The translations under genes were made by a program, and so were the position numbers. A stretch of DNA of 64,000 bases from Burkholderiales bacterium (GTDB lineage: Bacteria > Pseudomonadota > Gammaproteobacteria > Burkholderiales > SG8-39), in assembly GCA_020848075.1 (NCBI GenBank), contig JADLAV010000084.1:4387-68386 (forward strand). Reading direction: 5' to 3'. The notes beneath the pieces are model-generated. The model was not told the DNA's origin. It saw nothing but the letters and a program-made list of their open reading frames with translations, and did not search any database. The stretch's first letter is position 1, and each line of letters starts with the position of its first letter. Shown here piece by piece: positions 1 to 19,168 of this stretch.

Positions 1-922
1 ACTGCACGCGGTCCCTGGTCTTCTCGAGCATGTCGGGGCGCCCGCCATAGGAGAGGATGTCGAGGCCGCAGGGCGCGAGCACCATCGGGATGCCGGCGTT
101 CACCGCTGCCATGAGCCGGTCGGGTCCCGGGTCGCGGTTACCCTTGAACAGGTGCTCCATCACCCCGCCGATGCAGATGTCGAGCACGCCGTGGAAGGCG
201 CCGTCGCGGATCATCTCCTCCATCGCCTTGTCGCCCTTGCCCTGGGCATGGCAGACGATCGGCGTGAAGCCGGCCTCCTCCAGAAGGCCGAGCGCGGACT
301 GCACCGCCATCTCGCCGAAGCCGAACGACGAAACGGCGACGCAGGGCTTGTCGAAGCGGATATCGGTGCCCTGCGTCATCTCGACCATGCCGCAGATGGC
401 GCCCACCGCGTTCGTGATCTGCGCCTCGAGGAGCGGGTTCATCTTCACGATGTCGAGCACCGTGTGGTGCATGGTGATGTCGCGCGTGCCGACGTACTTG
501 TCGATGTAGGCCGGGTGCGCCGCCATCGGCGAGGCCATCACCTTGGGCATGCCGAAGGGCAGTCGCTGCATGATCGACGTGGCCACCAGCGTCGCGGTGC
601 CGCCGCCGATGCCGATAATGCCGTGCACGCGGCCCTGCTTCACCAGCTCGTCGACGATCGCCGCGGCGCCCTTGATCTGGTTCGCGGTCGCCGTGTCCCG
701 ATCGGAGCGGTACTTCTCGCGCACCACCTCGATCGGGAGCCCGCCCCGCGCGGCCACCTCCTCGGTGCGGATGTCGCCGGGGAAGGGCGGCGGCTCCTCC
801 ATGCTGAAGTCGAGCAGGATGGCCTCGTGCCCGCGGTCGGCGATCAACCGCTTGACGAAGACGATGTCCTCGCCGCGCGTGTCGAGATTGCAGACGACGA
901 CGATGCCTTTCCTGGGGCTCAT
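1..922 (-). CDS. UPF0261 / Tm-1-like ATP-binding domain protein (C-terminal part runs off the window)
   Basis: Hand translation of the minus strand from the ATG at 922 gives MSPRKGIVVVCNLDTRGEDIVFVKRLIADRGHEAILLDFS...HGIIGIGGGTATLVATSIMQRLPFGMPKVMASP..., which is typical of UPF0261. The start overlaps the UbiD stop (ATGA at 919-922). It is absent from the ORF track because there is no stop in the window. Confidence 0.7.
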   Translation of the reverse strand, partial: MSPRKGIVVVCNLDTRGEDIVFVKRLIADRGHEAILLDFSMEEPPPFPGDIRTEEVAARGGLPIEVVREKYRSDRDTATANQIKGAAAIVDELVKQGRVHGIIGIGGGTATLVATSIMQRLPFGMPKVMASPMAAHPAYIDKYVGTRDITMHHTVLDIVKMNPLLEAQITNAVGAICGMVEMTQGTDIRFDKPCVAVSSFGFGEMAVQSALGLLEEAGFTPIVCHAQGKGDKAMEEMIRDGAFHGVLDICIGGVMEHLFKGNRDPGPDRLMAAVNAGIPMVLAPCGLDILSYGGRPDMLEKTRDRVQ

Positions 923-2430
923 TTCGCCTTGGCCTGCTTCGGCGCCTCGGGACGCGTGAGCCGCGGGATCATGTCCGCTACCGGGCTCGAGCCCTTGAAG
1001 CCGTACTCGTTCCAGCGGTCGGACACCTTCTGCAGCACGGCGCGGTCCATGAAGATCTCGCTCGGCTTGTTCTTCCACTCGAACGGCGTGCAGGCGTCGA
1101 GCAGGATGCGGCTCGTGATCTCGCGCGCCTCGATCGGCAGCCCCGGGTCGAGGGGCGTGGAGCGCCCGCGGTCGATGATCTGCGCCGAGCGCTTCGGATC
1201 GAAGCGGGTGGCGAGCGCCCACCAGATGCGGTCCCAATCGTCGGCGGCGATGTCGTGGTCCACCGTGATGACGCCCTTCACGCCGTAGTGCCCGGTCGTG
1301 CTCGCGATCACCGCATTGCCGACGTGGTTCGAGTGGCCGGGATACATCTGCTTCACCGACACCACGACCCAGAACCGGCCGCACGCCTCCGGCGGGATGT
1401 AGACGCTCTGGACGCCCGGCACCTTCATCGTCTCGAGGTCGTACCAGAGCGTCGCCGTGCGGTTGAGCGACTGGATCATGTGGATGTCGTTGATCGGCTT
1501 GCCCACCGTGGTCGCCCAGAACACGGGCTGGTTGCGGTGGAGGATGCGCTTCACGCGCAGCACCGGCTTCGGATAGTCCTTGCCCTTGTTGCCGGAGTAG
1601 TAGCCGGTGTACTCGCCGAACGGGCCTTCGTCCATGAGCTCGTTCGGGTCGATCCAGCCCTCGGCGATGATCTCGGCGTGGGCCGGCAGCGTGAGGCCGG
1701 TGAGATCGGACTTGAACACCGGCACTGGGCGTCCGCGGAGCGAGCCGGCGATGTCGTACTCATCGGTCTGCGCCGACACGAGCGTCGAGCCGGCCAGGAA
1801 GAGCACCGGATCGCAGCCAACCACATAGGCCGCCGGCATGAGCTCGCCGCGCTCGGCGTACTTTTTCATGTGCATGTCGCCGTGCTTGCCCTTGATGATC
1901 TGCGAGCCGAGGATGTTCTTGTCGAGCACCTGCGCGCGGTAGGTGCCGAGGTTCGTCCAGCCCGTGTCCGGGTCCTTGGTGACGAGGTAGCCGGCGGTGA
2001 CGAAGAAGCGGCCGCCGTCGTCGGGGTAGAACCACGGCACCGGGAACGCCTCGAGATCGACCGCGTCGCCCTCGACCACGTTCTCCATCACCTTGGGGTT
2101 GTCGACGAAGCGCGGCTTCACCATCTGCCTGGTCGTCTGCTCCATCCACTTCTTGGAGAGCTGGCTCATCGAGAGCGCCGGATCCTGCTCGAGCGCGAGG
2201 GCGAGCCGCTGCGGCGTGGTGAAGGCGCTCGTGAACACCGGGATCTTGTAGCCCTTCACGTTCTCGTACAGGAGCGCCGGCCCCTTCTGCTCCTCGTTCA
2301 CCTTGGAGACGTGGCAGAGCTCCCACTTCCAGTCGACCTCGGCCGTCACCCGGTGCAGCATGCCGTGGATCTCGCAGGCCTCGATGTAGTCGCGCAGATC
2401 CTCGATCGGCTTCACTTCCAAGCGTTTCAT
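919..2430 (-). CDS. UbiD-family (de)carboxylase, PpcA/PpcB-like
   Basis: 503-aa ORF with UbiD hallmarks: NLGTYR, KGKHGDMH, TDEYDIAG and EGPFGEYTGYY. GAGGAGG RBS lies upstream of the ATG at 2430. Confidence 0.9.
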   Translation of the reverse strand: MKRLEVKPIEDLRDYIEACEIHGMLHRVTAEVDWKWELCHVSKVNEEQKGPALLYENVKGYKIPVFTSAFTTPQRLALALEQDPALSMSQLSKKWMEQTTRQMVKPRFVDNPKVMENVVEGDAVDLEAFPVPWFYPDDGGRFFVTAGYLVTKDPDTGWTNLGTYRAQVLDKNILGSQIIKGKHGDMHMKKYAERGELMPAAYVVGCDPVLFLAGSTLVSAQTDEYDIAGSLRGRPVPVFKSDLTGLTLPAHAEIIAEGWIDPNELMDEGPFGEYTGYYSGNKGKDYPKPVLRVKRILHRNQPVFWATTVGKPINDIHMIQSLNRTATLWYDLETMKVPGVQSVYIPPEACGRFWVVVSVKQMYPGHSNHVGNAVIASTTGHYGVKGVITVDHDIAADDWDRIWWALATRFDPKRSAQIIDRGRSTPLDPGLPIEAREITSRILLDACTPFEWKNKPSEIFMDRAVLQKVSDRWNEYGFKGSSPVADMIPRLTRPEAPKQAKAK

Positions 2431-2516
2431 CGGTCTTCCTCCTCGTTGCGATAGTCTGTGTTCCCTTCCCGCGCCCCGCCTCGGCTGCGCCTCGCTGGCA
2501 GGGAACCCCTTATTCA

Positions 2517-2592
2517 GTCATTCCCGCGCAAGTGGGAATCCAGGAAGTCGCTGATTGCCCACGAGCTGGATTCCCGCTTGCGCGGGAATGAC
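2517..2592. repeat. REP-like inverted pair (two 27-nt GTCATTCCCGCGCAAGTGGGAATCCAG units, one mismatch, 22-nt spacer)
   Basis: 2517-2543 and 2566-2592 are reverse complements with one mismatch. Each unit is itself a small hairpin (ATTCCCGC/GTGGGAAT). The pair lies in the ppsB-like / UbiD intercistronic gap. Confidence 0.7.
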
Positions 2593-2611
2593 GAGGTTCG
2601 TCCAGGCTTTC

Positions 2612-3760
2612 TTACGTCACGCGTTTCCCCTGCAGCATCCCGCTCAGGATGTGGTCGAGCGCCGTCTTTGCGGCGGGCCGGGCCTCGGCCGGCGGCTTGG
2701 TGCTCCACACCGTTTCCGGCCGCGCCTGCAGGATGAAGATGTTGCCGCCGGCGGGCAGGTCCTTGTCGACCGCCCACTCGATGTCCATCGGCCGGCCGTA
2801 ATGGCGCTCGATCGCCTTGCCCATGCGCGCGAGCTCGATCACCTCCTCGTCGATGATCGACTGGACGGTCTGGCGCTCGAACGGCACCTCCTGCGCCCGC
2901 GACTTCTGGGCGCTGAAATCGACCGTGTAGCAGATCTCCTTGCGCGAGATGGTGCGGCCGATGATGTCGAGCGACACCTTGTTCACCACGAAGTGATCGG
3001 GCGTGACCTCGCCGGACACCACCGACTCGCCGAATCCGAAATTCGAGTCGAGCGCGATCACCGAGCGGTCGCCGTTGGCCGGGTCGAGGGTGAACATGAC
3101 ACCCGCGGCGAAGGAGTTCGCCATCTTCTGCACGCCGACGCTGATCGCCACCGCGTCGTGCGCGAAGCCCATCTTCGCGCGGTAGGCGATCGCCCGCGCG
3201 GTGAAAAGGCTCCCCATGCAGCGGCGCGCATGCGTGAGCACGTCGTCGATGCCGCGGATCCAGAGATAGGTGTCCTGCTGCCCGGCGAAGCTCGCGCCTG
3301 GCAGATCCTCGGCGGTGGCGCTCGAGCGCACCGCCACGGGTGTGGCCGGCAGGCAGCAGCGCACGCCGAGCTTGCGGTAGAACTCCGCGACCGAGTCCTC
3401 GAGCGCCATCGAGAACGGCGTCGCCTCGACGAGGGCTCGAAGCTCGCGGCTGCGCGCCTCCAGCGCATCCATGTCGCGGGCATCGATGCCGGTCGTGAGC
3501 TCGCGGATCGCGTCTGCGATGCCGCCTTCGCGCACGAAGCGCCGGTACGCCGCAGTCGTCAGTGCGAAGCCCGGGGGCACGCGCACGCCGGCGTTGATGA
3601 GCTCGCCGAGGGAGGCGCACTTGCCGCCCACGACGGCAACGGCGCCCTTGTCTACCTCCTGGAACCAGAGGAGCTCGGCTGCGCCGTCGGGCGCGGCCTC
3701 GGCCGTGGTCCCCGGAAGGGTTCCAGCCATGAAGCGTTCCATGTCGCTTGGGTCGCGCAC
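2612..3760 (-). CDS. PEP/pyruvate-binding (ATP-grasp) protein, phenylphosphate synthase beta-subunit-like (PpsB-like)
   Basis: 382-aa ORF with ...VVGGKCASLGELINAGVRVPPGFALTTAAY...SSATAEDLPGASFAGQQDTYL..., the N-terminal nucleotide-binding module of the PEP synthase/PPDK family. The GTG start at 3760 is uncertain; in-frame ATGs at 3742 and 3733 are alternatives. Confidence 0.8.
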   Translation of the reverse strand: MRDPSDMERFMAGTLPGTTAEAAPDGAAELLWFQEVDKGAVAVVGGKCASLGELINAGVRVPPGFALTTAAYRRFVREGGIADAIRELTTGIDARDMDALEARSRELRALVEATPFSMALEDSVAEFYRKLGVRCCLPATPVAVRSSATAEDLPGASFAGQQDTYLWIRGIDDVLTHARRCMGSLFTARAIAYRAKMGFAHDAVAISVGVQKMANSFAAGVMFTLDPANGDRSVIALDSNFGFGESVVSGEVTPDHFVVNKVSLDIIGRTISRKEICYTVDFSAQKSRAQEVPFERQTVQSIIDEEVIELARMGKAIERHYGRPMDIEWAVDKDLPAGGNIFILQARPETVWSTKPPAEARPAAKTALDHILSGMLQGKRVT

Positions 3761-3761
3761 G

Positions 3762-3787
3762 CCCCGCGGCGGCTGCCCGCCGCGGGG
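3762..3787 (-). other. Intercistronic GC hairpin (11-bp perfect stem) between the ppsA-like stop and the ppsB-like start
   Basis: CCCCGCGGCGG-CTGC-CCGCCGCGGGG, read directly. It abuts the candidate GTG start at 3760. Confidence 0.4.
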
Positions 3788-3797
3788 CTGGACGTGG

Positions 3798-5630
3798 CTA
3801 CCGGGCGATGTTCACCGCGCCGGTGGAGCCGTCGACCCGGAGCAGCATGCCGGTCTTGATCACCTTCGTCGCGTGCCCGGTGCCGACGACGGCCGGCATG
3901 CCGTACTCGCGGCAGACGATCGCCGCGTGGCTCATCACGCCGCCGACGTCGGTGACGCACGCCTTGATCTTGGCGAACGCCGGCGCCCAGGACGGCGACG
4001 TGGTCGGCGCCACCAGGATCTCGCCCTCCTCGAGCTGGCGCACCTCGTCCACCGTCCGGCACACGCGCGCCCTGCCTTCGATCACGCCGGGGCTGCCGGC
4101 AAAGCCGTTCAGCACGCTGATGGTCGACGGGTCCTTCACCTGCTGCACCGCGGCCCAGTCGGCGAGCGACTTGTTGGTCACGCCCCAGAGCACGATGGTG
4201 AACGGCTCCTGGATGACTTCCGGCGCGGTGCCGATGGCGGGCGGTGCGTGCCACTCGCGGAACTTCTGCATAACGCCTTTGCGCCACGTGATCTCCTTCG
4301 GCCAGGTCTTGGTGCCGCGTGGCGTCGTGCCGGTGGCCCAGGCGGTGACGACGTCCCACAGGGCGGACTTCACCTCGTCACGCCGCAGGTACCAGACGTC
4401 CTCGATATCGGCGATGAGGCCGTGCTCCTTCAGGATCGCCGCGACCTCGCGCACCTTGTTCCAGAAGATCGAGTGGAACCAGTGCTCGACGTAGAAGAGG
4501 TGGTTCTCGACGTACGGGAACACGGTCTTCGCGGTGCCGAGCAGCTCGTCGAAGGTCTTGCGGTCCTCCTCGCGCTCGATGAGCGCGCGGTACTCCTTCA
4601 CGATGCGGTCGCGCTCGGCGCGCACCTGGTCCATCGGCCGCTCGATGTTGGCGCCCTGCTTGAGCTTGCCGATGTAGGTGGCGATGCCGGAGAGCGGCAC
4701 GTTCATCGCATCGTTCCAGCAGCGGTCGTGGTGGTACCAGCCGGTGCCGGTGGAGATGTAGAACCAGGGATCGCGCGCCTTGTCGAGCGCGGCGAGCCAC
4801 TCCTTGCCCTTCGGCAGCTTCTTCAGCGCCGGCTCGACCTCGCTCCACTCCTGGCTGAACGTGACCGCCTGCTCGATGCCGAGCTCGATCGCCTTGCGGG
4901 CGAGCTTCTTCAGCTCCTCGTCCGACTGGTACATGATGACGTCGATGCCGGAGATCATCTGCGTCACGCGCTGCACCGGGATGCTCGGGAACTGCTTCTG
5001 CACGAAGTCGAGGAAGAAGACGTACGCGGCGTAGCCCAGGTTCAGGAACTCGAAGTGGTACTGCCAGCACTTGATGCCGAGATTGATCAGGTCGTCGTAG
5101 GCCTTGATGAGGTGGAAGCCCTTCGACTCGCCGAGGCCTTCGGTCACCACGCGCAGGTCCTCCATCTCGGGCAGCGTCGGGATCGAGAGCCCCTGGAGTT
5201 CCGCGATGGTGTTCTTCATCTTCTGCTTCCACTTCTCTTCCAGCGCGTCCCAGTTCTTGTAGTAGTAGCCGGCGCGCTCCATGAAGTGCGGTGCGCGCGC
5301 CTCGATGTCGGCGGGATTCTTCACCGGGACCGGCGAGATGTAGACGTAGCCGTTGATGATGCGGTGATCGACCCCGCGCACCGGCGGCACCTGGAAGATG
5401 CGGTTGTTGTACTGCGACAGCGCCAGGAACCACGCCTCGTCCCAGATCGTGTCGAACGGATAGAGCGGCTCCGGGTAGTGCAGGCCGTCGTAGAACCAGA
5501 ACGTCTGCTCCTCGTAGGCCTTGCGCTCCGGGTCGTCCGTGACGAACTGGTACTGGTACGGGTACATCCGCTCCCAGCCCTCGGTGCCCGGAATGGCCTT
5601 GATGTCGTGCGGGTTCGGAAATGTCGGCAT
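3798..5630 (-). CDS. Phenylphosphate synthase alpha-subunit-like protein (PpsA-like; PEP-utilising mobile His domain at the C-terminus)
   Basis: The ORF 3798..5711 is trimmed to the ATG at 5630 (MPTFPNPHDIKAIPGTEGWERMYPYQYQFVTDD...), which has an AGGAGG RBS at 5635-5640. The C-terminus ...TTSPSWAPAFAKIKACVTDVGGVMSHAAIVCREYGMPAVVG is the phospho-His swivel domain. Confidence 0.85.
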   Translation of the reverse strand: MPTFPNPHDIKAIPGTEGWERMYPYQYQFVTDDPERKAYEEQTFWFYDGLHYPEPLYPFDTIWDEAWFLALSQYNNRIFQVPPVRGVDHRIINGYVYISPVPVKNPADIEARAPHFMERAGYYYKNWDALEEKWKQKMKNTIAELQGLSIPTLPEMEDLRVVTEGLGESKGFHLIKAYDDLINLGIKCWQYHFEFLNLGYAAYVFFLDFVQKQFPSIPVQRVTQMISGIDVIMYQSDEELKKLARKAIELGIEQAVTFSQEWSEVEPALKKLPKGKEWLAALDKARDPWFYISTGTGWYHHDRCWNDAMNVPLSGIATYIGKLKQGANIERPMDQVRAERDRIVKEYRALIEREEDRKTFDELLGTAKTVFPYVENHLFYVEHWFHSIFWNKVREVAAILKEHGLIADIEDVWYLRRDEVKSALWDVVTAWATGTTPRGTKTWPKEITWRKGVMQKFREWHAPPAIGTAPEVIQEPFTIVLWGVTNKSLADWAAVQQVKDPSTISVLNGFAGSPGVIEGRARVCRTVDEVRQLEEGEILVAPTTSPSWAPAFAKIKACVTDVGGVMSHAAIVCREYGMPAVVGTGHATKVIKTGMLLRVDGSTGAVNIAR

Positions 5631-5682
5631 GGCTCCTCCTCTCGATACCGGCGAGCGCGATGCGCTCGGGTGAGAGGCTGCC

Positions 5683-5698
5683 TGCAATCGCCGTGCCA
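5683..5698 (-). promoter_or_regulatory. Sigma54 (-24/-12) promoter TGGCACGGCGATTGCA
   Basis: The plus strand reads TGCAATCGCCGTGCCA, whose reverse complement is TGGCAC-N5-TTGCA, a perfect consensus. It lies about 55 nt upstream of the ppsA-like ATG and faces a divergent sigma54 activator gene. Confidence 0.8.
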
Positions 5699-5828
5699 CC
5701 GCAGCGCACAACGCCCCGCCGTCATTCTTGTCGACCGAGCCTGCCCGCGGAAAGTGAAGCTTGTCCTGCCGCGCCGCAGCATCATCATTTGGTGAATTGG
5801 CAGCGGCGAAAGCATCCGATACTCATCC

Positions 5829-5864
5829 TTTGATCAAATGGTGAAGTCGTGAGATGGATCAAAA
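5829..5864. promoter_or_regulatory. Candidate activator UAS (TTTGATCAAA palindrome plus a second GATCAAAA)
   Basis: A perfect 10-bp palindrome at 5829-5838 and a related half-site at 5857-5864, in a locally AT-richer tract about 135-165 bp upstream of the -24 element. Confidence 0.3.
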
Positions 5865-5913
5865 TGCGTTGTCCGTTGCGGCGATATAGACATCCATTCG
5901 GACGGAGGGCTCC

Positions 5914-7638
5914 ATGACGCGCTTGAAAAAGGTGGCGCATCGCGATGCCGGCGATCTGCGCTCGCAGGTCCGTTTCTCGGCCGAGAGCGGCCATATCTGG
6001 CTGCACGAGCACCGGATGCTGCTGGTGCATGCCGACGCGCAAGCATCGCTCCGCAAGGAGTTGATCGACACGCTCGGGCTCGCGCGCGCGCGGGGGCTCT
6101 TGACGCGCATGGGCTACGCGTCGGGCGTGCGCGATGCGGAACTGGCGCGAAACCGGATGCAGAGCAAGAGCGACCTCGACGCGTTCATGACCGGGCCGCA
6201 GCTGCACACCCTCGAGGGCATCGTGCTCGTCACGCCGATCAGGCTCGAGGTCGACCGTGCGCGCGGGAAGTTCTACGGCGAATTCCTGTGGGAGAACTCG
6301 TGGGAGGGGCAGACGCACCGGCGCGACTTCGGCATCCACCACGAGCCGGTGTGCTGGACCCAGATCGGCTACGTGTGCGGATACACGTCGGCCTTCATGG
6401 GCCGTCCGATCCTCTACAGGGAGGTCGAGTGCAGCGGCGCGGGCGACAGCCACTGCACGATCGTCGGCAAGCCCGTGGAAGAATGGGACGACGCCGACGC
6501 GGACATGCGGTACTTCAGCCCGGAGTCGATCGCGAATCAGCTGCTCGACCTGCAGACCCAGGTCGCGGAGCTTCGGTCCACGATCGAGGGGAAGGAGCGC
6601 CTGCCGGGCGACATGGTGGGCGACTCGCCGGGTTTCCGGCTCGCCTACGAGCTCCTGCGCAAGGCCGCGGGCACGCACATCACCGTGCTGCTGCTCGGCG
6701 AGACCGGCGTGGGCAAGGAAATGTTCGCGCGCCGGCTGCACGAGATGGGGCCGCGCGCGAGCGAGGCGCTGGTGGCCGTGAACTGCGCTGCGATTCCCCA
6801 GGAGCTCGTCGAGTCCGAGCTTTTCGGCGTCGAGAAAGGCGCCTACACCGGCGCGCAGGCCTCGCGTCCGGGACGGTTCGAGCGCGCGCACGGGGGGACG
6901 CTCTTTCTCGACGAGGTCGGCGACCTGCCGCTCGCGGCGCAGGCGAAGCTCTTGCGCGTGCTCCAGGACGGGGAAGTCGAGCGCCTCGGCGATCATCGCA
7001 CGCGCAAGGTCAACGTCCGGCTCGTCGCGGCGACCAACCGCAACCTGCAGGGGCTGGTGGCGCAGGGCAAGTTCCGCTCCGACCTCTACTATCGGTTGAA
7101 CGCCTACCAGATCCACATCCCGCCGCTCCGCGAGCGCCCGGAGGACACCCGGCTCCTGTTCAAGCGGCTGGTCGAGAAGTACTCGGTGATCCACGGCAAG
7201 AAGATCGCGGGCATCACCGACAAGGCGAAGAAGGCGCTGCTCGCGTACTCCTGGCCGGGAAACATCCGGGAGCTGCAGAACACCGTGGAGCGCGGTGTCA
7301 TCCTGGCCCCGCACGGCGGGCGCATGGAGATCGAGCATCTCTTCACGTCATGGGATGGTGGCAAGGCGGGCGAGATCGGCATCGACCGCTATGGCGCGCT
7401 CGACGTGCACGCCCGCGCGGGCGACGAGTTCTGCGAATCGGTCCTCGCCGGCACGATGACGCTCGACCAGGTCGAGGCCAAGCTGATCGAGATGGCCGTG
7501 AGCCGGGCCGGCGGAAATCTCTCGCTCGCGGCGCGCACGCTCGGGCTCACCCGCCCGCAGCTCGCCTATCGCCTGAAAGGGCTCCAGGCAGAGGCGCAGG
7601 GCGTCGTCGCACCGGCAGGCGAGTCGGCAACCGCATAG
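5914..7638 (+). CDS. Sigma54-dependent transcriptional activator, XylR/DmpR (NtrC) family with XylR_N + V4R sensor
   Basis: 574 aa. The N-terminal ...[36 protein letters not shown] is V4R-like. The AAA+ domain has [23 protein letters not shown] and FLDEVGDL. C-terminal HTH. GGAGGG RBS. Confidence 0.9.
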
Positions 7639-7659
7639 ACGCGACGGCGGCCGCGTTCC

Positions 7660-8721
7660 ATGAGCGAGCAGTTCGACGGCACGATGCCGGTCGCCGAGCG
7701 GCACCGTTTCGATGCTCGCGCGCTCGCGCGCTACCTCGGCGCCAAGGTGGCGGGCTTCGGCGGCGCGCTCGCGGTCGAGCAGTTTCGCGGCGGCCAGTCG
7801 AACCCGACCTACCTCCTGTCGGCGGGCGGCCGCCGCTACGTGATGCGCGCGAAGCCCGCGCCGGCCGCCAAGCTCCTGCCGTCCGCGCACGCGATCGAGC
7901 GTGAGTACCGCGTGATCTCGGCGCTGGGCCGCGCCGGCGTGCCGGTCCCGCGGACGTTCGTCCTGTGCGAGGACGAGAGCGTCATCGGGCGCGCCTTCTT
8001 CGTCATGGAGTACGTCGAAGGGCGCGTCCTCTGGGACCAGTCGCTGCCGGGGATGGGCCGGGACGAGCGGCGTGCGATCTACGACGAGATGAACCGGGTG
8101 ATCGCGGCGCTGCACGCCGTGCCGTATGCCGGCGTCGGGCTCGCGGATTTCGGCAAGCCGGGGAACTATCTCGCGCGCCAGATCGCGCGCTGGTCCAAGC
8201 AGTACCAGGCGTCGCAGACCGAGACGATCGCGGCGATGGACCGCCTGATCGAGTGGCTGCCGTCGCACGTTCCGCCGGGCGACGAGACGTCGGTCGTGCA
8301 CGGAGACTACCGCATGGACAACCTGATCTTCCATCCGAGCGAGCCGCGCATCCTCGCCGTGCTCGACTGGGAGCTCTCGACCCTCGGCCACCCCCTCGCG
8401 GATTTTTCGTACCATTGCATGAGCTGGCACATTCCGCCGGAGCGCTTCCGCGGGATCGGGGGTCTCGATCTCGGCGCGCTCGGCATCCCGAGCGAGCCGG
8501 ACTACGTCGCGCTCTACTGCCGGCGTACCGGGCGCTCGTCGATCGAGCACTGGGACTTCTATCTCGCGTACAACATGTTCCGGCTCGCCGCGATCCTGCA
8601 GGGCATCATGAAGCGGGCACTGGAAGGCACCGCGGCGAGCCAGCGGGCGCTCGACGCCGGCAAGCGCGCCCGCCCGCTCGCCGAGATGGGGTGGCGGCTG
8701 GTGGAGGAGCGTATCTTGTGA
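7660..8721 (+). CDS. Phosphotransferase (APH/ChoK fold), ACAD10/11 N-terminal-like / LvaA-like kinase
   Basis: 353 aa. QFRGGQSNPTYLL, HGDYRMDNLIF (HxDxxxxN) and LDWE motifs. Confidence 0.85.
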   Translation: MSEQFDGTMPVAERHRFDARALARYLGAKVAGFGGALAVEQFRGGQSNPTYLLSAGGRRYVMRAKPAPAAKLLPSAHAIEREYRVISALGRAGVPVPRTFVLCEDESVIGRAFFVMEYVEGRVLWDQSLPGMGRDERRAIYDEMNRVIAALHAVPYAGVGLADFGKPGNYLARQIARWSKQYQASQTETIAAMDRLIEWLPSHVPPGDETSVVHGDYRMDNLIFHPSEPRILAVLDWELSTLGHPLADFSYHCMSWHIPPERFRGIGGLDLGALGIPSEPDYVALYCRRTGRSSIEHWDFYLAYNMFRLAAILQGIMKRALEGTAASQRALDAGKRARPLAEMGWRLVEERIL

Positions 8722-8731
8722 TTCGAAAGGG

Positions 8732-8904
8732 CACCACCCCGGCCGCTTCGCGGCCACCCCTCCTCTCCGAGGCGGGGAAGACATCCTTTATCCCCTCCTT
8801 TTCAAGGGGTGCCGGGCGAAGCCCGGCGGGGTGGTTCGCGCGGACCGCTGGCGAAGCCGGCGGAGTGGTTCGCGCGGAGCGCTGGCGAGGCCGGCGGGGT
8901 GGTT
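8732..8904. repeat. GC-rich double-hairpin repeat cluster (inverted pair plus two extra 34-bp tandem units)
   Basis: CACCACCCCGGCCGCTTCGCGGCCACCCCTCCT... is followed by the opposite-orientation CCCCTCCTTTTCAAGGGGTGCCGGGCGAAGCCCGGCGGGGTGGTT. Tandem units follow at 8837-8870 and 8871-8904 (CGCGCGGAsCGCTGGCGArGCCGGCGGrGTGGTT). Confidence 0.65.
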
Positions 8905-8930
8905 GTGACGAGCGTGAGGAGTAGCGATCG

Positions 8931-10145
8931 ATGGACTTCGAATTCAGCCCGAAGGTGAAGGCACTCCAGGCGAAGCTCGCCGCGTTCATGGAGACCCACG
9001 TCCACCCCAGCGAGAACAGGTACTGGGAGGAGGCCGAGGAGAACCGCGCGCAGGGCAACGCGTGGGTGCCGACGCGAATCGTCGAGGAGCTGAAGCCCAA
9101 GGCGCGCGCTGAGGGTCTGTGGAACCTGTGGCGGCCGAAGGATCACGGCGGCACGCTCACGAACCTCGAATACGCGCCGCTCTGCGAGATCATGGGGCGC
9201 GTGACGTGGGCGCCCGAGGTGTTCAACTGCTCGGCGCCCGACACCGGCAACATGGAAGTGCTGCTGCGCTACGGCACGCCGGAGCAGCAGGACCGCTGGC
9301 TCGCACCGCTCCTCGAGGGAAAGATCCGCTCGGCGTTCCTGATGACCGAGCCGGGCGTCGCCTCGTCGGATGCCACCAACGTGCAGTGCCGCATCGAGCG
9401 GCGCGGCGTCGAGTACGTGATCAACGGCCACAAGTGGTGGTCCTCGGGCGCGGGCGACCCGCGCTGCCGGATCTACATCGTCATGGGCAAAACCGACCCG
9501 GACAATGCGAACCGGCACAAGCAGCAGTCGATGGTCCTCGTGCCGGCCGATGCGCCGGGGGTCAAGATCATGCGCGCACTGCGGGTGTTCGGGTTCGACG
9601 ATGCGCCGCACGGCCACATGGAGATCGCGCTGAAGGACGTGCGCGTGCCCGCGGCCAACATGCTGCTAGGCGACGGGCGCGGCTTCGAGATCGCGCAGGG
9701 CCGTCTCGGCCCGGGCCGGATCCATCACTGCATGCGCGTCATCGGCCAGGCGGAGCGCGCCCTCGAGCTCATGTGCAAGCGCCTGAAGAAGCGCGTCGCC
9801 TTCGGGAAGCCGGTGGCCGAGCACGGCGTCTGGCACGAGCGGATCGCCGAGTCGCGCATCAGGATCGAGCAGGCGCGCCTGCTCACGCTCAAGGCGGCGC
9901 ACATGATGGATACCGTCGGGAACAAGGTCGCGAAGGCGGAGATCGCGATGATCAAGGTGCTCGCGCCGACGATGGCGCAGCAGGTGATCGACTGGGCGAT
10001 CCAGGCGCACGGCGGCGGCGGCGTGTGCCAGGAGTTTCCGCTCGCGTGGATGTACTCTTGGAACCGCTGCCTGCGCCTCGCCGACGGCCCGGACGAGGTG
10101 CACCGGGCGCAGATCGCCAAGATCGAGCTGGGGAAGTATCTGTGA
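8931..10145 (+). CDS. Acyl-CoA dehydrogenase, ACAD10/11 C-terminal-like
   Basis: 404 aa. [26 protein letters not shown]...LWNLW...[12 protein letters not shown]...GGGG.. is a typical ACAD fold sequence. GAGGAG RBS. Confidence 0.9.
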
Positions 10146-10186
10146 GCGGCGAAGTATCCCTGAGCGGGGCGTCAGGCGACGGCTGG

Positions 10187-10292
10187 AACCACTCCGCCGC
10201 TCTCGGCGGCAGCCGTCCTTGAAAAGGCGGGGATCGGTTTTCTCCCCTCCTCCTTGAGGAGGGGTGGGACGCGAAGCGTGACGGGGTGGTGG
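10187..10292. repeat. GC-rich double-hairpin repeat, inverted pair (same family as 8732-8904)
   Basis: AACCACTCCGCCGCTCTCGGCGGCAGCCGTCCTTGAAAAGGCGGGGA followed by TCCCCTCCTCCTTGAGGAGGGGTGGGACGCGAAGCGTGACGGGGTGGTG. Confidence 0.6.
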
Positions 10293-10317
10293 CGGGTACA
10301 GCGACAGGGAGAGGCGG

Positions 10318-10968
10318 ATGGTGAAGCTCTGCGGAATCCGGATCAGCAACTACCACAACAAAGTGCGCCTCGCGGCGCTCGAGAAGGGCATCGCGTTCGA
10401 GGAGAACGACCAGTGCGCGCCCTCGCGCGACGAGGCTCACCTCGAACGCTCGGCGATGGGGAAGGTTCCCTACCTCGAGGTGAACGGCGAGACTCTCACC
10501 GAGTCGCAGGCGATCTGCGAGTATCTCGAGGAGGCGTATCCCGAGAAGCCGCTCTATCCGCGGGATCCGTGGCAGCGCGCCAAGGTGCGTGAGCTGATCA
10601 GCTACCTCGAGCTGCACGTGGAGCTCGTCTCCCGCCGGCTGCACAAGCAGGCGTTCTACGGCGGGGCGGTTTCGGACGAATCGAAGGCGCAGGTCGAGCG
10701 CGAGCTCACCCGGGGGCTCAAGGCGCTCGGCCGGCTGGCGAAATTCGCGCCGATGCTGGCCGGACCGGAGCTCACGCTCGCCGACGTCTGCGCCTTCGTT
10801 CATCTGCCTCTGGTAGCCACCGTGACGCGGCTCGTGCTCGGCCGCGACCTGGTCGAAGAACTGCTCCCGCAGGCGAAGCCGTATCTCAAGGCGCTCGGCG
10901 AGCGGCCGGCATTCCAGCGGGTCGCCGCCGATCGCAAGGCCGCCACGGACGCGCGCCGCAAGAAGTAG
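10318..10968 (+). CDS. Glutathione S-transferase family protein
   Basis: 216 aa with a thioredoxin-like N-domain (KLCGIRISNYHNKVRLAALEKGI...GKVPYLEVNGETLTESQAICEYL) and a helical C-domain. Confidence 0.85.
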   Translation: MVKLCGIRISNYHNKVRLAALEKGIAFEENDQCAPSRDEAHLERSAMGKVPYLEVNGETLTESQAICEYLEEAYPEKPLYPRDPWQRAKVRELISYLELHVELVSRRLHKQAFYGGAVSDESKAQVERELTRGLKALGRLAKFAPMLAGPELTLADVCAFVHLPLVATVTRLVLGRDLVEELLPQAKPYLKALGERPAFQRVAADRKAATDARRKK

Positions 10969-11251
10969 CGGGGGGGCGCGCCGAGCGCCGCTTGCAGCGC
11001 CATCTTCAGGGTATCGAGCTCGGCGGTCACGGGCGTCTGGGCGAGAGTGATGCATCGATGATAGTCGCAAGACCGTGCCGCCGCCCGATGACGAACGCGA
11101 TGAATAGCGCACAGCGACGCCCGCAATGCGCGTCCGGCTGTGACGAATTCGGCATGCGCTTCGGGCGGCCTGCCCGGACAATTTGCCGTGGCGGCGCACG
11201 GTGCGCCGCCACGACCGACCCCCCACAGAGACGGAGCGCGGCATTGGCACG

Positions 11252-11707: not shown

Positions 11708-11891
11708 GCGCGCCGGCCGCACCCCTCACCGCGCCTCGAGCACCTGCTGCACCGGGCGGTCGACGCGAGGGCCGACGGGTGCCCCTGCGGCTCACGCACG
11801 CGTCGCCCGGGCGCGCCGATAGTGCGACGATGCCGGGGCGCAGCGCTCCGGTCCGATCCGCGGCGCGTCACCGCACTGGAGGACCCGGGCG

Positions 11892-12950: not shown

Positions 12951-12952
12951 GG

Positions 12953-12973
12953 CGTGCGGCAAGGGGCCGCACG
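12953..12973. terminator. Hairpin between convergent genes (CGTGCGGC-AAGGG-GCCGCACG)
   Basis: Perfect 8-bp stem immediately after the radical-SAM stop. No clear U-tract. Confidence 0.35.
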
Positions 12974-13041
12974 GGCGGCTCTCGATCTCCTCGAAGTACT
13001 CGCGGCGGCAGCTGGCCCGTGCAGGTGCGCTCGCCGGCCTC

Positions 13042-13848: not shown

Positions 13849-13931
13849 ATCACGAGACTTTAACACCCCGTTGGATCATCGAGCCCTTGGATGTACGATT
13901 CCAGGACTTTCCCGACCTGTTGGACTGCCAC

Positions 13932-15581: not shown

Positions 15582-15619
15582 CCGCGAAGCGCGCGGACAA
15601 CCGGCGAAGGAGGTAGGAC

Positions 15620-19131: not shown

Positions 19132-19168
19132 AGGATCGTCAACCGAGATGACAGAGGAGGTGTTGACC

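What the first reader, a model, noticed from the sequence alone, without database searches (positions are those of the whole stretch)
1..7638. Sigma54/XylR-controlled PpsA/PpsB-like + single UbiD + UPF0261 operon: a non-canonical phenylphosphate-type module
The characterised anaerobic phenol route (Thauera/Aromatoleum) uses phenylphosphate synthase PpsABC plus a four-subunit carboxylase. That carboxylase has two UbiD paralogues, a small subunit and a HAD-like phosphatase subunit. This operon has a different composition:
- It sits behind a perfect TGGCAC-N5-TTGCA promoter and a divergent XylR_N/V4R activator.
- It carries only PpsA-like and PpsB-like genes.
- An 11-bp-stem hairpin lies between those two genes.
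- A REP pair follows, then a single UbiD enzyme.
- A UPF0261 (Tm-1-like ATP-binding) gene is translationally coupled to the UbiD stop through an ATGA overlap.

No bacterial function is established for UPF0261. Its tight coupling to a UbiD enzyme and an ATP-dependent phosphorylating system suggests either a new accessory or activation partner, or a different phenolic or aniline-like substrate. The operon continues past the left edge of the window.
Basis: partly seen in the sequence, partly recalled or inferred. Interest (0 to 1): 0.75.

Follow-up and report, generated by a model that had tools for sequence, protein, structure and literature searches.

The report
Geobacter-type phenol-activation operon with UPF0261
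This is an oxygen-independent phenol-activation operon of the already described "single-carboxylase" (Geobacter/Desulfatiglans) type, and its one overlooked part is a conserved UPF0261 gene, from a family recently shown to include a phenol-group kinase, which may be the missing component of this poorly understood carboxylase.

Summary
The described features are all present. They are a regulator with XylR_N, V4R and sigma-54 domains, an exact TGGCAC-N5-TTGCA promoter, ppsA, a hairpin, ppsB, an inverted repeat pair, one PpcB-type UbiD, and an ATGA-overlapped UPF0261 gene cut by the window edge.

PpsA, PpsB and the regulator are 76%, 67% and 69% identical to those of a canonical ppsABC-ppcBDAG cluster (Azoarcus sp. 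KH32C). The UbiD is 55% identical to PpcB. No PpcA, PpcG or PpcD homologue occurs in the window or in about 170 related loci.

The order regulator / ppsA-ppsB-ubiD-UPF0261-CBS(ppsC)-ubiX is conserved:
- UPF0261 follows the UbiD in 71 of 76 genome loci.
- The UbiD precedes UPF0261 in 63 of 64 metagenome loci.

The layout is not new. Geobacter metallireducens Gmet_2099-2105 has the same order, and Desulfatiglans anilini has UPF0261 genes in its phenol and aniline clusters. Published proteome tables show these as phenol- and aniline/4-aminobenzoate-specific, but the authors do not discuss them.

The claim that UPF0261 has no bacterial function is outdated, because MarK (2025) is an ADP-forming aromatic kinase.

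Verdict: a new member of a known operon type, most likely converting phenol to phenylphosphate and then 4-hydroxybenzoate. The role of UPF0261 is an unreported and testable lead, either as phosphoryl-handling partner of the lone UbiD or as a second phenol kinase.

The parts
1..922 (-). 5' three-quarters of a UPF0261 (Tm-1-like / MarK-family) gene. The ATG is at 922-920 and the gene is cut by the window edge.
   Evidence: Pfam UPF0261 N-terminal domain (2e-49) and C-terminal domain (3e-35). Best NCBIfam model NF002676. PDB 9MPY (MarK) 6.5e-37. 85-90% identical to the full-length gene in syntenic loci.
919..2430 (-). PpcB-type UbiD (prFMN-dependent carboxylase), 503 aa. Its stop codon overlaps the UPF0261 start (ATGA).
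   Evidence: Three UbiD Pfam domains. TIGR02724 phenyl_P_beta scores 580 bits against a cutoff of 469; the alpha model scores 200 against 565. 55% identical to Azoarcus sp. KH32C PpcB and 29% to PpcA and PpcX. R165 and E268/E273 motifs are conserved.
2519..2590 (.). Inverted pair of 25-nt elements (2519-2543 and 2566-2590) in the ppsB-ubiD spacer. It forms a long hairpin in the transcript.
   Evidence: No other copy in the window or in 168 loci. The spacer is 181 nt against a median of 44 nt in homologous loci. No U-tract.
2612..3742 (-). ppsB-like gene (ATP-binding subunit of phenylphosphate synthase).
   Evidence: Pfam PPDK_N 1e-113. 67% identical to PpsB of the canonical KH32C cluster.
3761..3788 (-). 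GC-rich hairpin (12-bp stem, GCAG loop) between ppsA and ppsB. It has no U-tract, so it is more likely an mRNA stabilising or processing element than a terminator.
   Evidence: -41.3 kcal/mol for the surrounding 66 nt, z = -3.5. (no terminator-like site). The feature is not conserved: in L001 the ppsA-ppsB spacer is only 14 nt (8800-8813).
3798..5630 (-). ppsA-like gene (phosphohistidine subunit of phenylphosphate synthase), 610 aa.
   Evidence: PEP-utilizers mobile domain. NF006152 scores 1223 bits. 76% identical to KH32C PpsA. The catalytic His motif GGVMSHAAIVCREYGMP is identical to KH32C and corresponds to His569.
5683..5698 (-). Sigma-54 (-24/-12) promoter TGGCAC-N5-TTGCA, 53 nt upstream of ppsA.
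   Evidence: A -24/-12 element occurs at the equivalent position in most homologous loci.
5782..5845 (.). Two to three copies of a TTGATCAAATGGTGA-like repeat, about 85-160 nt upstream of the promoter. These are candidate activator binding sites (UAS).
   Evidence: direct and inverted repeats D1, I3, I5. The resemblance to the XylR/DmpR UAS half-site TTGANCAAATC is recalled from memory and was not tested.
5914..7638 (+). Divergent sigma-54-dependent one-component activator of the XylR/DmpR/PheR type.
   Evidence: XylR_N, V4R, Sigma54_activat, AAA_lid and HTH_8 domains. Best NCBIfam model is MobR, a phenol regulator. 69% identical to the regulator beside the canonical KH32C pps-ppc cluster. Divergent upstream position in 53 of 57 loci.

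Best explanation
The region is the promoter-proximal part of an oxygen-independent phenol-activation operon of the 'beta-only' (Geobacter/Desulfatiglans) type.

**Proposed pathway**
1. A PheR-like XylR/V4R activator senses phenol and switches on a sigma-54 promoter.
2. PpsA and PpsB phosphorylate phenol to phenylphosphate (ATP to AMP + Pi) through a phosphohistidine on PpsA. By synteny, a CBS protein (PpsC) encoded just beyond the window edge assists.
3. A single PpcB-type UbiD enzyme then makes 4-hydroxybenzoate from phenylphosphate and CO2. Its prenylated-flavin cofactor would come from a UbiX that is also just beyond the edge.

**Shown.** Gene identities, the promoter, the absence of alpha, gamma and delta subunits, and conservation of the six-gene module.

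**Inferred.** The substrate and the reaction.

**UPF0261.** The protein encoded right after the UbiD belongs to the family of MarK, an ATP-dependent kinase of phenolic hydroxyl groups. My preferred reading, held at about 0.4, is that it handles the phosphoryl group at the carboxylation step. It would bind phenylphosphate and remove or transfer the phosphate so that phenolate is delivered to the UbiD. That would do the job of the HAD-type delta subunit (and perhaps alpha and gamma) of the Thauera enzyme.
For: **Identity to a canonical cluster (Azoarcus sp. KH32C pAZKH)**
- PpsA 76%, PpsB 67%, regulator 69%, UbiD against PpcB 55%.
- For the syntenic locus L001: CBS against PpsC 60%, UbiX 53%, PNPOx 49%.
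- The catalytic His motif of PpsA is identical.
- The UbiD passes the PpcB model and fails the PpcA model.
- No PpcD, PpcG or PpcA homologue occurs in the window or in the 85 loci held at that point.

**Conservation of the module**
- Genome loci: PpsAB 64 of 64, UPF0261 directly after the UbiD 71 of 76, CBS 64 of 65, UbiX 56 of 60, divergent regulator 53 of 57.
- Reverse test with UPF0261 as the query: UbiD directly upstream in 63 of 64.

**Evidence that the product is 4-hydroxybenzoate**
- In Georgfuchsia (L002) and a Desulfotomaculaceae MAG (L085), the module sits beside genes with the domain make-up of 4-hydroxybenzoyl-CoA reductase and aromatic-acid CoA ligase (AMP-binding; Fer2 and aldehyde/xanthine-dehydrogenase molybdopterin domains, plus an FAD-binding subunit in L085).

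**Experimental anchors in other organisms**
- G. metallireducens Gmet_2099-2105 has the same gene order, and this cluster is described as the phenol-induced pps-ppc cluster.
- D. anilini UPF0261 protein 02057, encoded next to the ligase and ppcB genes, gives peak areas of 2.5e9 in phenol-grown cells and 5e7 in benzoate-grown cells.

**For the UPF0261 role**
- MarK is an aryl-OH kinase that forms ADP.
- The ATP-site residues D-T-(K to R), plus Gly195 and His219 that bind the phenolic oxygen, are kept.
- UPF0261 occupies the slot that ppcD holds after ppcB in KH32C.
- All six loci lacking UPF0261 carry a Metallophos phosphoesterase gene. Only 13 of 56 loci with UPF0261 do.
- 39 of 56 loci with UPF0261 have no recognisable phosphatase gene nearby.
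- UPF0261 also accompanies a distant Pps-like pair in a cluster without a UbiD (L111). This ties it to aryl-phosphate chemistry rather than to UbiD maturation.
Against: - No enzyme assay exists for any beta-only carboxylase. Phenylphosphate carboxylase activity could not be shown in D. anilini extracts.
- The window stops inside UPF0261, so ppsC and ubiX are inferred only from synteny.
- Against the delta-analogue role: L088 carries UPF0261 together with a HAD hydrolase and an LpdD chaperone.
- 13 loci have both UPF0261 and Metallophos.
- Five Burkholderiales loci replace UPF0261 with a CoA ligase and keep everything else, so UPF0261 is not indispensable.
- Its position varies: before ppsA in L088 and after the ligase in L084.
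- The ATGA overlap occurs in only about 10% of loci.
- The UPF0261 proteins of the Desulfobacterota and Firmicutes clusters are only about 35% identical to this one and have Ser in place of His219.
- The apparent mutual exclusion with alpha, gamma and delta subunits rests on a single canonical lineage.
- The only known activity in the family is the forward kinase reaction.
Confidence: 0.7

Rival explanations
1. UPF0261 is a second, cheaper phenol kinase. Like MarK, it would make phenylphosphate from phenol with ATP going to ADP, at a cost of one ATP equivalent. It would work in parallel with PpsAB, which spends two equivalents (ATP to AMP + Pi). One could serve at high phenol concentrations and the other at low, or they could cover different phenols. 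The lone UbiD would then carboxylate and dephosphorylate phenylphosphate without help.
For: - The only characterised family member is exactly such a kinase.
- The ATP-site D-T-(K/R) motif and the residues that contact the phenolic oxygen (Gly195, His219) are conserved in the window type.
- About 25% of genomes that carry an aromatic kinase have both MarK-type and AcvAB/HpeHI-type kinases.
- Dispensability fits an auxiliary enzyme, since five loci replace it with a ligase.
- It would address the energy-budget problem raised for sulfate reducers.
Against: - It does not explain why two kinases for one substrate are kept in one operon in more than 130 loci and in three contexts: phenol, aniline and L111.
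- It does not explain why UPF0261 is absent from the canonical cluster.
- The MarK pocket residues His304 and His348 are replaced by Gln/Asp and Leu.
- The cluster-linked UPF0261 of Desulfobacterota and Firmicutes lacks His219.
Confidence: 0.3
2. The operon acts on a different substrate from phenol, such as aniline, catechol, hydroquinone or a cresol. UPF0261 would be part of that altered specificity.
For: - D. anilini has a paralogous aniline cluster with pasA, pasB, a PpcB-like UbiD and its own UPF0261.
- The UbiD is only 55% identical to canonical PpcB.
- T. aromatica enzymes are known to be promiscuous towards catechol (own knowledge, not tested here).
Against: - PpsA (76%), PpsB (67%) and the sensor-regulator (69%) are far closer to the canonical phenol proteins than the aniline enzymes are (28% and 41% to T. 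aromatica).
- Related loci sit beside genes with the domain make-up of 4-hydroxybenzoyl-CoA reductase and CoA ligase.
- PheR-type sensors are highly phenol-selective in A. aromaticum.
- The same architecture is the phenol-induced cluster in Geobacter and D. anilini.
Confidence: 0.1
3. UPF0261 has no catalytic role in the pathway. It could be an ATP-dependent maturation or assembly factor for the UbiD-prFMN enzyme, a regulator, or a passenger gene.
For: - Tm-1 acts by ATP-bridged protein binding rather than catalysis.
- The locus lacking UPF0261 in a deltaproteobacterial MAG carries an LpdD prFMN chaperone.
- Some loci do without UPF0261.
Against: - L088 has both LpdD and UPF0261.
- L111 has UPF0261 with a Pps-like pair but no UbiD.
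- Linkage across Burkholderiales, Desulfobacterota and Firmicutes, together with substrate-specific expression in D. anilini, argues against a passenger gene.
- The residues that bind the aromatic substrate in MarK are partly conserved.
Confidence: 0.12

Closest known systems
Geobacter metallireducens GS-15 pps-ppc cluster, Gmet_2099-Gmet_2105 (Butler et al. 2007; Schleinitz et al. 2009)
   Same: The gene order is the same: Fis/sigma-54 regulator, ppsA, ppsB, one UbiD ('ppcB'), a 418-aa 'hypothetical protein' (Gmet_2103), a CBS protein and ubiX. It is described as the phenol-induced cluster that contains only a ppcB homologue.
   Different: - That Gmet_2103 is a UPF0261 protein is inferred from its size and position only, because its sequence could not be fetched.
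- The host is an iron-reducing Desulfuromonadota, whereas this window is from a denitrifying Burkholderiales.
- The REP-like insertion and the ATGA overlap are specific to this window's lineage.
Desulfatiglans anilini phe (phenol) and ani (aniline) clusters (Xie & Muller 2018; Xie et al. 2020)
   Same: - Beta-only UbiD with ppsA/ppsB (or pasA/pasB), ubiX, and a UPF0261 gene in each cluster.
- The UPF0261 proteins are made specifically on phenol (02057) or on aniline/4-aminobenzoate (03869).
   Different: [quoted passage not shown]
- UPF0261 is not adjacent to the UbiD.
- An alpha-like UbiD encoded elsewhere is phenol-induced.
- The related Thermodesulfobacteriota UPF0261 (L084) is only about 35% identical to the window protein and lacks His219.
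Thauera / Aromatoleum / Azoarcus phenylphosphate synthase PpsABC plus phenylphosphate carboxylase PpcABCD (reference used here: Azoarcus sp. KH32C pAZKH)
   Same: - Same scaffold: a PNPOx gene and a divergent sigma-54 regulator, then ppsA, ppsB, a CBS ppsC, ppcB and ubiX.
- Identities are 76%, 67%, 69%, 55%, 60% and 53% (PpsA, PpsB, regulator, UbiD vs PpcB; and, from the syntenic locus L001 because the window is cut, CBS vs PpsC and UbiX).
- The regulatory logic is the same.
   Different: - No alpha (second UbiD), gamma (small subunit) or delta (HAD phosphatase) subunit.
- No ppcX, DUF120 or NUDIX genes.
- UPF0261 sits where ppcD follows ppcB.
- ppsC comes after the carboxylase gene instead of before it.
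MarK (Saro_1862, PDB 9MPY), the UPF0261 aromatic kinase of Novosphingobium aromaticivorans (Hall et al. 2025)
   Same: - Same two-domain fold family (E = 8e-49 for the full-length orthologue).
- D14-T15 and a basic residue at position 16, together with Gly195 and His219, are conserved.
- It acts on phenolic OH groups, in a pathway where phosphorylation precedes a carboxylation.
   Different: - About 30% identity.
- Lys16 is Arg; His304 is Gln/Asp; His348 is Leu; Thr196 is Phe.
- MarK is clustered with a biotin-type carboxylase (acvCDEF-like) and replaces the AcvAB/HpeHI dikinase. Here UPF0261 coexists with the dikinase and a UbiD carboxylase.
AcvAB/HpeHI-AcvCDE-AcvF acetovanillone / 4-hydroxyacetophenone pathway
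   Same: The logic is the same: a Pps-like dikinase phosphorylates the phenolic OH, the phosphorylated intermediate is carboxylated, and the phosphate is then removed.
   Different: The carboxylase is not a UbiD, carboxylation is on the side chain, and a dedicated phosphatase is known.

Membership tests
Phenylphosphate synthase (PpsABC) | PpsA carries a C-terminal PEP-utilizer mobile domain with the catalytic histidine (His569 in T. aromatica). | tested here: met
   Pfam PF00391 at residues 534-605. The motif GGVMSHAAIVCREYGMP is identical to KH32C PpsA at His569. 76% overall identity.
Phenylphosphate synthase (PpsABC) | PpsB is a separate ATP-binding PPDK_N subunit encoded next to ppsA. | tested here: met
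   PF01326 at 1e-113. 67% identical to KH32C PpsB. Adjacent in 64 of 64 loci.
Phenylphosphate synthase (PpsABC) | PpsC is a CBS-domain stimulatory subunit. | tested here: inconclusive
   It is not in the window. A CBS gene 60% identical to KH32C PpsC follows UPF0261 in 64 of 65 syntenic loci, so it is expected just left of position 1.
Phenylphosphate synthase (PpsABC) | Catalyses phenol + ATP + H2O to phenylphosphate + AMP + Pi. | not testable with these tools
   This needs an enzyme assay.
Four-subunit phenylphosphate carboxylase (PpcABCD, Thauera type) | Beta subunit (UbiD paralogue, TIGR02724). | tested here: met
   580 bits against a cutoff of 469. 55% identical to KH32C PpcB. KH32C PpcB nests inside the same clade in an NJ tree without support values.
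Four-subunit phenylphosphate carboxylase (PpcABCD, Thauera type) | Alpha subunit (second UbiD paralogue, TIGR02723). | tested here: not met
   There is none in the operon or in syntenic loci. The two other UbiDs in the window score 172 and 212 bits against a cutoff of 565 and lie in a separate IclR-linked operon.
Four-subunit phenylphosphate carboxylase (PpcABCD, Thauera type) | Gamma (small subunit) and delta (KdsC-like HAD phosphatase) subunits. | tested here: not met
   tblastn with KH32C PpcG and PpcD finds nothing in the window or in the 85 loci held at that point.
Beta-only pps-ppc cluster (Geobacter / Desulfatiglans type) | ppsA and ppsB with a single PpcB-like UbiD, ubiX and a CBS gene, and no alpha, gamma or delta subunit in the cluster. 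| tested here: met
   Window genes plus synteny. Same order as Gmet_2099-2105. ubiX and CBS are inferred for this genome.
Beta-only pps-ppc cluster (Geobacter / Desulfatiglans type) | Induced during anaerobic growth on phenol. | not testable with these tools
   This is shown only for homologous clusters in other organisms.
UbiD family (prFMN-dependent (de)carboxylases) | Three UbiD domains and the conserved Arg / Glu-x4-Glu catalytic motif. | tested here: met
   PF20695, PF01977 and PF20696. GTYR165 and E268-GPFG-E273 are conserved across the clade. Assigning these residues to catalysis is from memory of Fdc1/UbiD studies.
UbiD family (prFMN-dependent (de)carboxylases) | A UbiX flavin prenyltransferase is available. 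| tested here: inconclusive
   There is no UbiX in the 64 kb window. One is present downstream in 56 of 60 syntenic loci.
UPF0261 / MarK family of aromatic kinases | Two-domain UPF0261 fold (PF06792 plus PF23189). | tested here: met
   (C-terminal domain truncated by the window edge). The full-length orthologue matches 9MPY at 8e-49 and Tm-1 at 1e-43.
UPF0261 / MarK family of aromatic kinases | ATP-site D14-T15-K16. | tested here: inconclusive
   The window protein and its type-A relatives have D-T-R. Arg may substitute for Lys. The natural E16 form of MarK is 1600-fold less active.
UPF0261 / MarK family of aromatic kinases | Aromatic pocket: Gly195 and His219 (phenolic oxygen), His304 (stacking), His348 (ketone oxygen). 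| tested here: inconclusive
   Gly195 and His219 are kept. His304 becomes Gln or Asp depending on the alignment, His348 becomes Leu, Thr196 becomes Phe, and Phe283 becomes Ile. This suggests a phenol-binding site with a different substrate pocket.
UPF0261 / MarK family of aromatic kinases | ATP-dependent phosphorylation of a phenolic OH with ADP as product. | not testable with these tools
   This needs an enzyme assay.
Sigma-54-dependent XylR/DmpR/PheR one-component phenol sensors | XylR_N plus V4R sensor, AAA+ sigma-54 activation domain, HTH_8, and a cognate -24/-12 promoter. | tested here: met
   Domains. MobR is the best NCBIfam model but scores below its exception-level cutoff (589 against 999). 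69% identical to the KH32C regulator. The promoter is present and conserved.

The most novel reading that the evidence does not exclude
UPF0261 would be the missing catalytic partner of 'beta-only' aryl-phosphate and aryl-phosphoamidate carboxylases. It would be a MarK-family phosphotransferase that takes the phosphoryl group off phenylphosphate at the carboxylation step and hands phenolate to a single UbiD. The phosphoryl group might go onto ADP, recovering one ATP. If so, the widespread form of anaerobic phenol carboxylation works with a different subunit logic from the Thauera textbook enzyme. That would explain why the activity could not be shown in D. anilini extracts and how energy-limited anaerobes afford the pathway.
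Probability: 0.3. Interest if true: 0.75.

Novelty: new member of a known kind. Interest (0 to 1): 0.5.

Why it matters
Anaerobic phenol degradation is taught from the Thauera model: PpsABC plus a four-subunit carboxylase. The survey here suggests that this model is the exception.

- 213 stretches in the GTDB species-genome set encode relatives of this single UbiD, and the 80 examined share its architecture.
- In an unsupported NJ tree, canonical PpcB nests inside that clade.

For the beta-only type, nobody has shown how phenylphosphate is dephosphorylated and carboxylated. Authors working on Desulfatiglans state explicitly that the mechanism and the energy budget are unresolved.

A conserved, substrate-induced gene from a family just shown to phosphorylate phenolic hydroxyl groups is a concrete candidate. 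It has not been discussed in the searchable literature, and it can be tested with a few enzyme assays or one gene deletion. The module is also a compact, O2-independent route from phenol to 4-hydroxybenzoate with possible biocatalytic use.

The operon itself, its regulation and its probable substrate are ordinary.

Tried and rejected
**Searches that led nowhere**
- An exact look-up of the UbiD protein in the assembly collection found nothing.
- The key subscription papers are not held, so statements about them come from citing papers or memory: Schleinitz 2009, Breinig 2000, Schuhle & Fuchs 2004.
- A literature search combining 'phenylphosphate' with Burkholderiales genus names returned only irrelevant ecology papers.
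- Searching for Gmet_2103-2105 in main texts found nothing. The gene table was found in a supplement instead.
- Homologue searches with the two UPF0261 types returned only close, unnamed relatives. They did not reveal named model organisms.
- Rfam gave no match in 1-20000.
- No intrinsic terminator lies in the intergenic spacers.

**Hypotheses considered and rejected**
- The two extra UbiD genes at 13.9-17.1 kb are not the missing alpha subunit. They score below the model cutoff, lie in a separate IclR/TRAP operon, and are not syntenic in other loci.
- Metallophos or HAD phosphatases are not strictly complementary to UPF0261. All six loci lacking UPF0261 have Metallophos, but 13 loci have both, and L088 has HAD as well as UPF0261.
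- UPF0261 is probably not a UbiD-only maturation factor. L111 has it without a UbiD, and L088 has it alongside LpdD.
- Translational coupling is not a conserved feature. The ATGA overlap occurs in about 12 of 121 loci, and my start-codon picking was noisy for about 20 loci.

**Not attempted**

Full report

Yes. Six-frame ORFs and profile searches give the following on the minus strand:
- a UPF0261 gene, 1-922, cut by the window edge;
- a 503-aa UbiD, 919-2430;
- a PPDK_N-only gene (ppsB-like), 2612-3742;
- a 610-aa gene ending in a PEP-utilizer mobile domain (ppsA-like), 3798-5630.

Divergently on the plus strand lies a regulator with XylR_N, V4R, Sigma54_activat and HTH_8 domains (5914-7638).

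The UbiD stop and the UPF0261 start share ATGA.

TGGCACGGCGATTGCA sits at 5683-5698 (-), 53 nt before the ppsA ATG. One such match in 64 kb is not significant on its own, because 0.6 are expected with one mismatch allowed. The element is, however, conserved in position: 42 of 68 homologous loci fit a -24/-12 pattern, and most of the rest show TGGCAC-N5-ATGC or TGGCCC-N5-TTGCG variants by eye.

The ppsA-ppsB hairpin has a 12-bp stem (3761-3788; z = -3.5).

The 'REP pair' is two inverted 25-nt copies, at 2519-2543 and 2566-2590.
- They are the only copies in the window and are absent from all related loci.
- They account for a 181-nt spacer where relatives have about 44 nt.

Neither structure has a U-tract, and nothing matches Rfam. 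Both therefore look like intra-operon RNA structures rather than terminators.

**2. What the genes are**

A tblastn search of plasmids found a fully annotated canonical cluster on Azoarcus sp. KH32C pAZKH. Its layout is a PNPOx gene and a sigma-54 regulator on one strand, then divergently ppsA-ppsB-ppsC(CBS)-ppcB-ppcD-ppcA-ppcG-ubiD(ppcX)-ubiX-DUF120-NUDIX-ligase.

Identities to that cluster:

| Protein | Identity |
|---|---|
| Window PpsA | 76% |
| Window PpsB | 67% |
| Window regulator | 69% |
| Window UbiD vs PpcB | 55% |
| Window UbiD vs PpcA, PpcX | 29% |

- The phosphohistidine motif of PpsA is identical.
- The UbiD passes NCBI's PpcB model (580 against 469 bits) and fails the PpcA model (200 against 565).
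- It keeps the Arg and Glu-x4-Glu motif of the family.
- No homologue of PpcD, PpcG, PpcA, DUF120, UbiX, PpsC or PNPOx exists elsewhere in the 64 kb.
- Two further UbiD genes (13887-15581 and 15620-17125) lie behind an IclR gene and before a fused TRAP permease. They fail both Ppc models and are not syntenic in relatives.

**3. Conservation**

The best 80 are 84-93% identical and are almost all Burkholderiales MAGs. They include Rubrivivax, Rhodoferax, Sulfuritalea and Ideonella, plus the cultured Ramlibacter lithotrophicus RBP-1.

Among loci long enough to judge:

| Feature | Loci |
|---|---|
| ppsA-ppsB before the UbiD | 64 of 64 |
| UPF0261 directly after the UbiD | 71 of 76 |
| AMP-forming ligase in that slot instead | 5 of 76 |
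| CBS gene downstream | 64 of 65 |
| ubiX downstream | 56 of 60 |
| Divergent regulator upstream | 53 of 57 |

The CBS protein is 60% identical to KH32C PpsC.

For the reverse test I used the window's UPF0261 as the query against metagenome contigs:
- the PpcB-type UbiD is immediately upstream in 63 of 64;
- CBS is downstream in 63 of 65;
- ppsB is upstream in 43 of 43.

Beyond Burkholderiales, the same parts occur in:
- Georgfuchsia;
- a Thermodesulfobacteriota MAG, L084: ubiX-PNPOx-ppsA-ppsB-ubiD-ligase-UPF0261-CBS;
- a Desulfotomaculaceae MAG, L085: ppsA-ppsB-ubiD-LMWPc-UPF0261-ligase, then genes with the domain make-up of 4-hydroxybenzoyl-CoA reductase, then ubiX;
- another MAG, L088: UPF0261-ppsA-ppsB-ubiD-CBS-LpdD-ubiX-HAD.

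One deltaproteobacterial MAG (L083) and the five ligase-variant loci lack UPF0261.

**4. This architecture is already on record**

The supplementary gene table of Butler et al. 2007 lists, for G. metallireducens:
- Gmet_2099, Fis-family regulator;
- Gmet_2100 and Gmet_2101, ppsA and ppsB;
- Gmet_2102, 'carboxylyase-related';
- Gmet_2103, 'hypothetical', 1257 bp or 418 aa, best outside hit in a haloarchaeon;
- Gmet_2104, CBS protein;
- Gmet_2105, phenylacrylic acid decarboxylase (UbiX).

This is the window's order, gene for gene. That Gmet_2103 is a UPF0261 protein is my inference from its size and position.

Xie & Muller 2018 describe the Geobacter and D. anilini clusters as containing only a ppcB homologue. 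They note that carboxylase activity could not be demonstrated in D. anilini extracts. They conclude that the mechanism must differ and that the energy cost is unexplained.

Ju & Zhang 2018 call PpsAB plus PpcB and PpcY the shared core across nitrate-reducing, sulfate-reducing and iron-reducing bacteria and syntrophs.

Regulation by a sigma-54 promoter and a XylR/V4R sensor (PheR) is also the canonical arrangement.

**5. The overlooked part**

In the proteome spreadsheet of Xie et al. 2020 (replicate 1 peak areas, in the order 4-aminobenzoate / aniline / benzoate / phenol):

| Protein | Location | Areas |
|---|---|---|
| H567DRAFT_02057, 'UPF0261 family' | between ubiX (02056) and ligase (02058) / ppcB2 (02059) | 0 / 5.0e7 / 5.3e7 / 2.5e9 |
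| H567DRAFT_03869, second UPF0261 | between pasB (03868) and ligase (03870) / pasA (03871) / ppcB (03872) | 5.4e9 / 6.5e8 / 0 / 0 |

The first follows the pattern of the phenol enzymes. The second follows the aniline/4-aminobenzoate pattern. The papers draw these genes as uncharacterised and do not discuss them.

A full-text search for 'UPF0261' returns eight papers, and none is about phenylphosphate. The one that matters is Hall et al. 2025.
- MarK, a UPF0261 protein, phosphorylates phenolic hydroxyl groups with ATP and gives ADP.
- Its 1.57 A structure (9MPY) has the aromatic substrate bound by Gly195 and His219 (phenolic oxygen), His304 (stacking) and His348 (ketone).
- That paper does not mention phenylphosphate, UbiD or anaerobes.

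**6. Comparison with MarK**

The window protein and its full-length orthologues align with MarK over the whole length at about 30% identity.
- Kept: D14, T15, Gly195 and His219.
- Changed: Lys16 to Arg, Thr196 to Phe, Phe283 to Ile, His304 to Gln/Asp, His348 to Leu.

So the nucleotide site and the contact to the phenolic oxygen look intact, while the rest of the pocket is different.

The cluster-linked UPF0261 proteins fall into at least two types:
- Type A: the window, Georgfuchsia and L088. These have D-T-R and keep His219.
- Type B: L084 and L085. These have D-T-K and Ser at position 219.

The two types are about 35% identical to each other. That is as far apart as either is from MarK, even though the neighbouring UbiDs are 63-65% identical. 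This points either to repeated recruitment or to fast divergence.

**7. How it most likely works**

The steps up to phenylphosphate rest on strong homology. [quoted passage not shown]

For UPF0261 I weigh three readings.

*(a) Phosphoryl-handling partner of the lone UbiD (about 0.4).*
- For: it sits where ppcD follows ppcB.
- For: alpha, gamma and delta subunits are absent wherever it is present.
- For: 39 of 56 loci with UPF0261 have no phosphatase-like gene nearby.
- For: all six loci lacking it carry a Metallophos phosphoesterase, against 13 of 56 that have it.
- For: it also accompanies a distant Pps-like pair in a UbiD-free cluster with ALDH, SDR and HD-domain genes (L111). This links it to aryl phosphates rather than to UbiD maturation.

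*(b) Second, ADP-forming phenol kinase (about 0.3).*
- For: it is the default from homology and is attractive energetically.
- Against: it does not explain why two kinases are kept together in three different pathway contexts.

*(c) Non-catalytic or maturation role (about 0.1).*

Evidence against (a):
- L088 has HAD, LpdD and UPF0261 together.
- UPF0261 is dispensable in the ligase variants.
- Its position in the operon varies.
- The ATGA overlap occurs in only about 10% of loci.
- The exclusion argument rests on a single canonical lineage.

From my own knowledge, aryl phosphates are high-energy esters, since tyrosine kinases are reversible. Transfer to ADP is therefore thermodynamically conceivable. 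It would, however, remove the driving force for carboxylation unless the two steps were tightly coupled. I give that version low weight.

**8. Phylogeny and physiology**

In a neighbour-joining tree without support values, KH32C PpcB nests inside the broad clade of single UbiDs, next to the Firmicutes and Desulfobacterota sequences. A more basal clade (L087) is a stand-alone UbiD among housekeeping genes. This suggests that the four-subunit enzyme is a derived form, but one reference sequence is thin support.

The window's host is a high-GC Burkholderiales with nosZ and a nosR-like gene. That is consistent with phenol use under denitrifying conditions.

**9. Verdict**

The operon is non-canonical relative to Thauera and the UPF0261 linkage is real, but the claims of novelty and of 'no known function' do not hold. 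It is a new member of the Geobacter-type phenol operon.

Its value is as a lead. A conserved, substrate-induced MarK-family gene in beta-only aryl-phosphate carboxylation clusters has not been discussed in the literature I could search, and it makes an acknowledged open question directly testable.

Noticed in passing
window 13042-19131: A separate operon: an IclR regulator (13042-13866, -), two tandem UbiD paralogues (13887-15581, 564 aa; 15620-17125, 501 aa) and a fused TRAP permease (17209-19131). Both UbiDs score below the PpcA, PpcB and VdcC cutoffs. This may be a heteromeric aromatic-acid (de)carboxylase with its own uptake system. No UbiX gene occurs anywhere in the window.
   Followed up: partly
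L111 (metagenome contig Ga0307377_10000445), 85-8806: A type-A UPF0261 (82% identical) in a different cluster. The order is a distant PpsA-like gene (28%) and PpsB-like gene (39%), an unknown 235-aa ORF, an aldehyde dehydrogenase, an HD-domain protein, an SDR, UPF0261 and an AMP-ligase. There is no UbiD. It may be a phosphorylation-dependent side-chain oxidation pathway for an alkylphenol.
   Followed up: partly
L084 11294-12520 and L085 10102-11346, compared with window 1-922: The UPF0261 proteins in Desulfobacterota and Firmicutes phenol clusters ('type B') have Ser where MarK His219 binds the phenolic oxygen. They are only about 35% identical to the window type, although the adjacent UbiDs are 63-65% identical. 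L084 also has a second UPF0261 gene beside a LysR regulator (741-1976).
   Followed up: partly
L035, L044, L049, L073, L079, L083 (and 13 further loci): A Metallophos (calcineurin-like) phosphoesterase gene follows ubiX in 20 loci, including every locus that lacks UPF0261. In the five Burkholderiales variants, a 552-aa AMP-forming ligase takes the UPF0261 slot. A HAD_2 hydrolase follows ubiX in L004, L006, L008, L011 and L088. An LMW phosphotyrosine-phosphatase gene follows the UbiD in L085.
   Followed up: partly
window 7660-10145: An APH-family phosphotransferase gene (7660-8721) and an acyl-CoA dehydrogenase gene (8931-10145) directly follow the regulator. In nearly all relatives, and in the canonical KH32C cluster, a PNPOx-family gene sits at that position. 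No PNPOx homologue is found in the window.
   Followed up: partly
window 2519-2590: The inverted 25-nt pair CATTCCCGCGCAAG(C/T)GGGAATCCAG is unique in the 64 kb window. It is absent even from the 93%-identical loci, so it looks like a recent insertion of a small palindromic element into the ppsB-ubiD spacer.
   Followed up: yes
window 11892-12950: A radical SAM/SPASM protein whose best NCBIfam matches, both below cutoff, are metalloenzyme and tungsten-cofactor oxidoreductase maturases. It lies between a GST gene (10318-10968) and the IclR/UbiD operon.
   Followed up: no
window 21635-26424 and 30487-36555: Glycine-cleavage P protein (21635-24577) and T protein (25051-26424) genes. Also a 932-aa NosZ with nos_propeller and cupredoxin domains (33757-36555), next to an FMN_bind/Fer4_5 protein of NosR type (30487-32787). 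The host is at least an N2O reducer.
   Followed up: no
L087 (Logan contig ERR13063745_3780574), 5962-7431: A UbiD 62% identical to the window enzyme stands alone among molybdopterin and tryptophan biosynthesis genes. It has no pps, ubiX or UPF0261 neighbours. This marks the outer limit of the phenol-linked clade and shows that NCBI's PpcB naming may over-reach.
   Followed up: no
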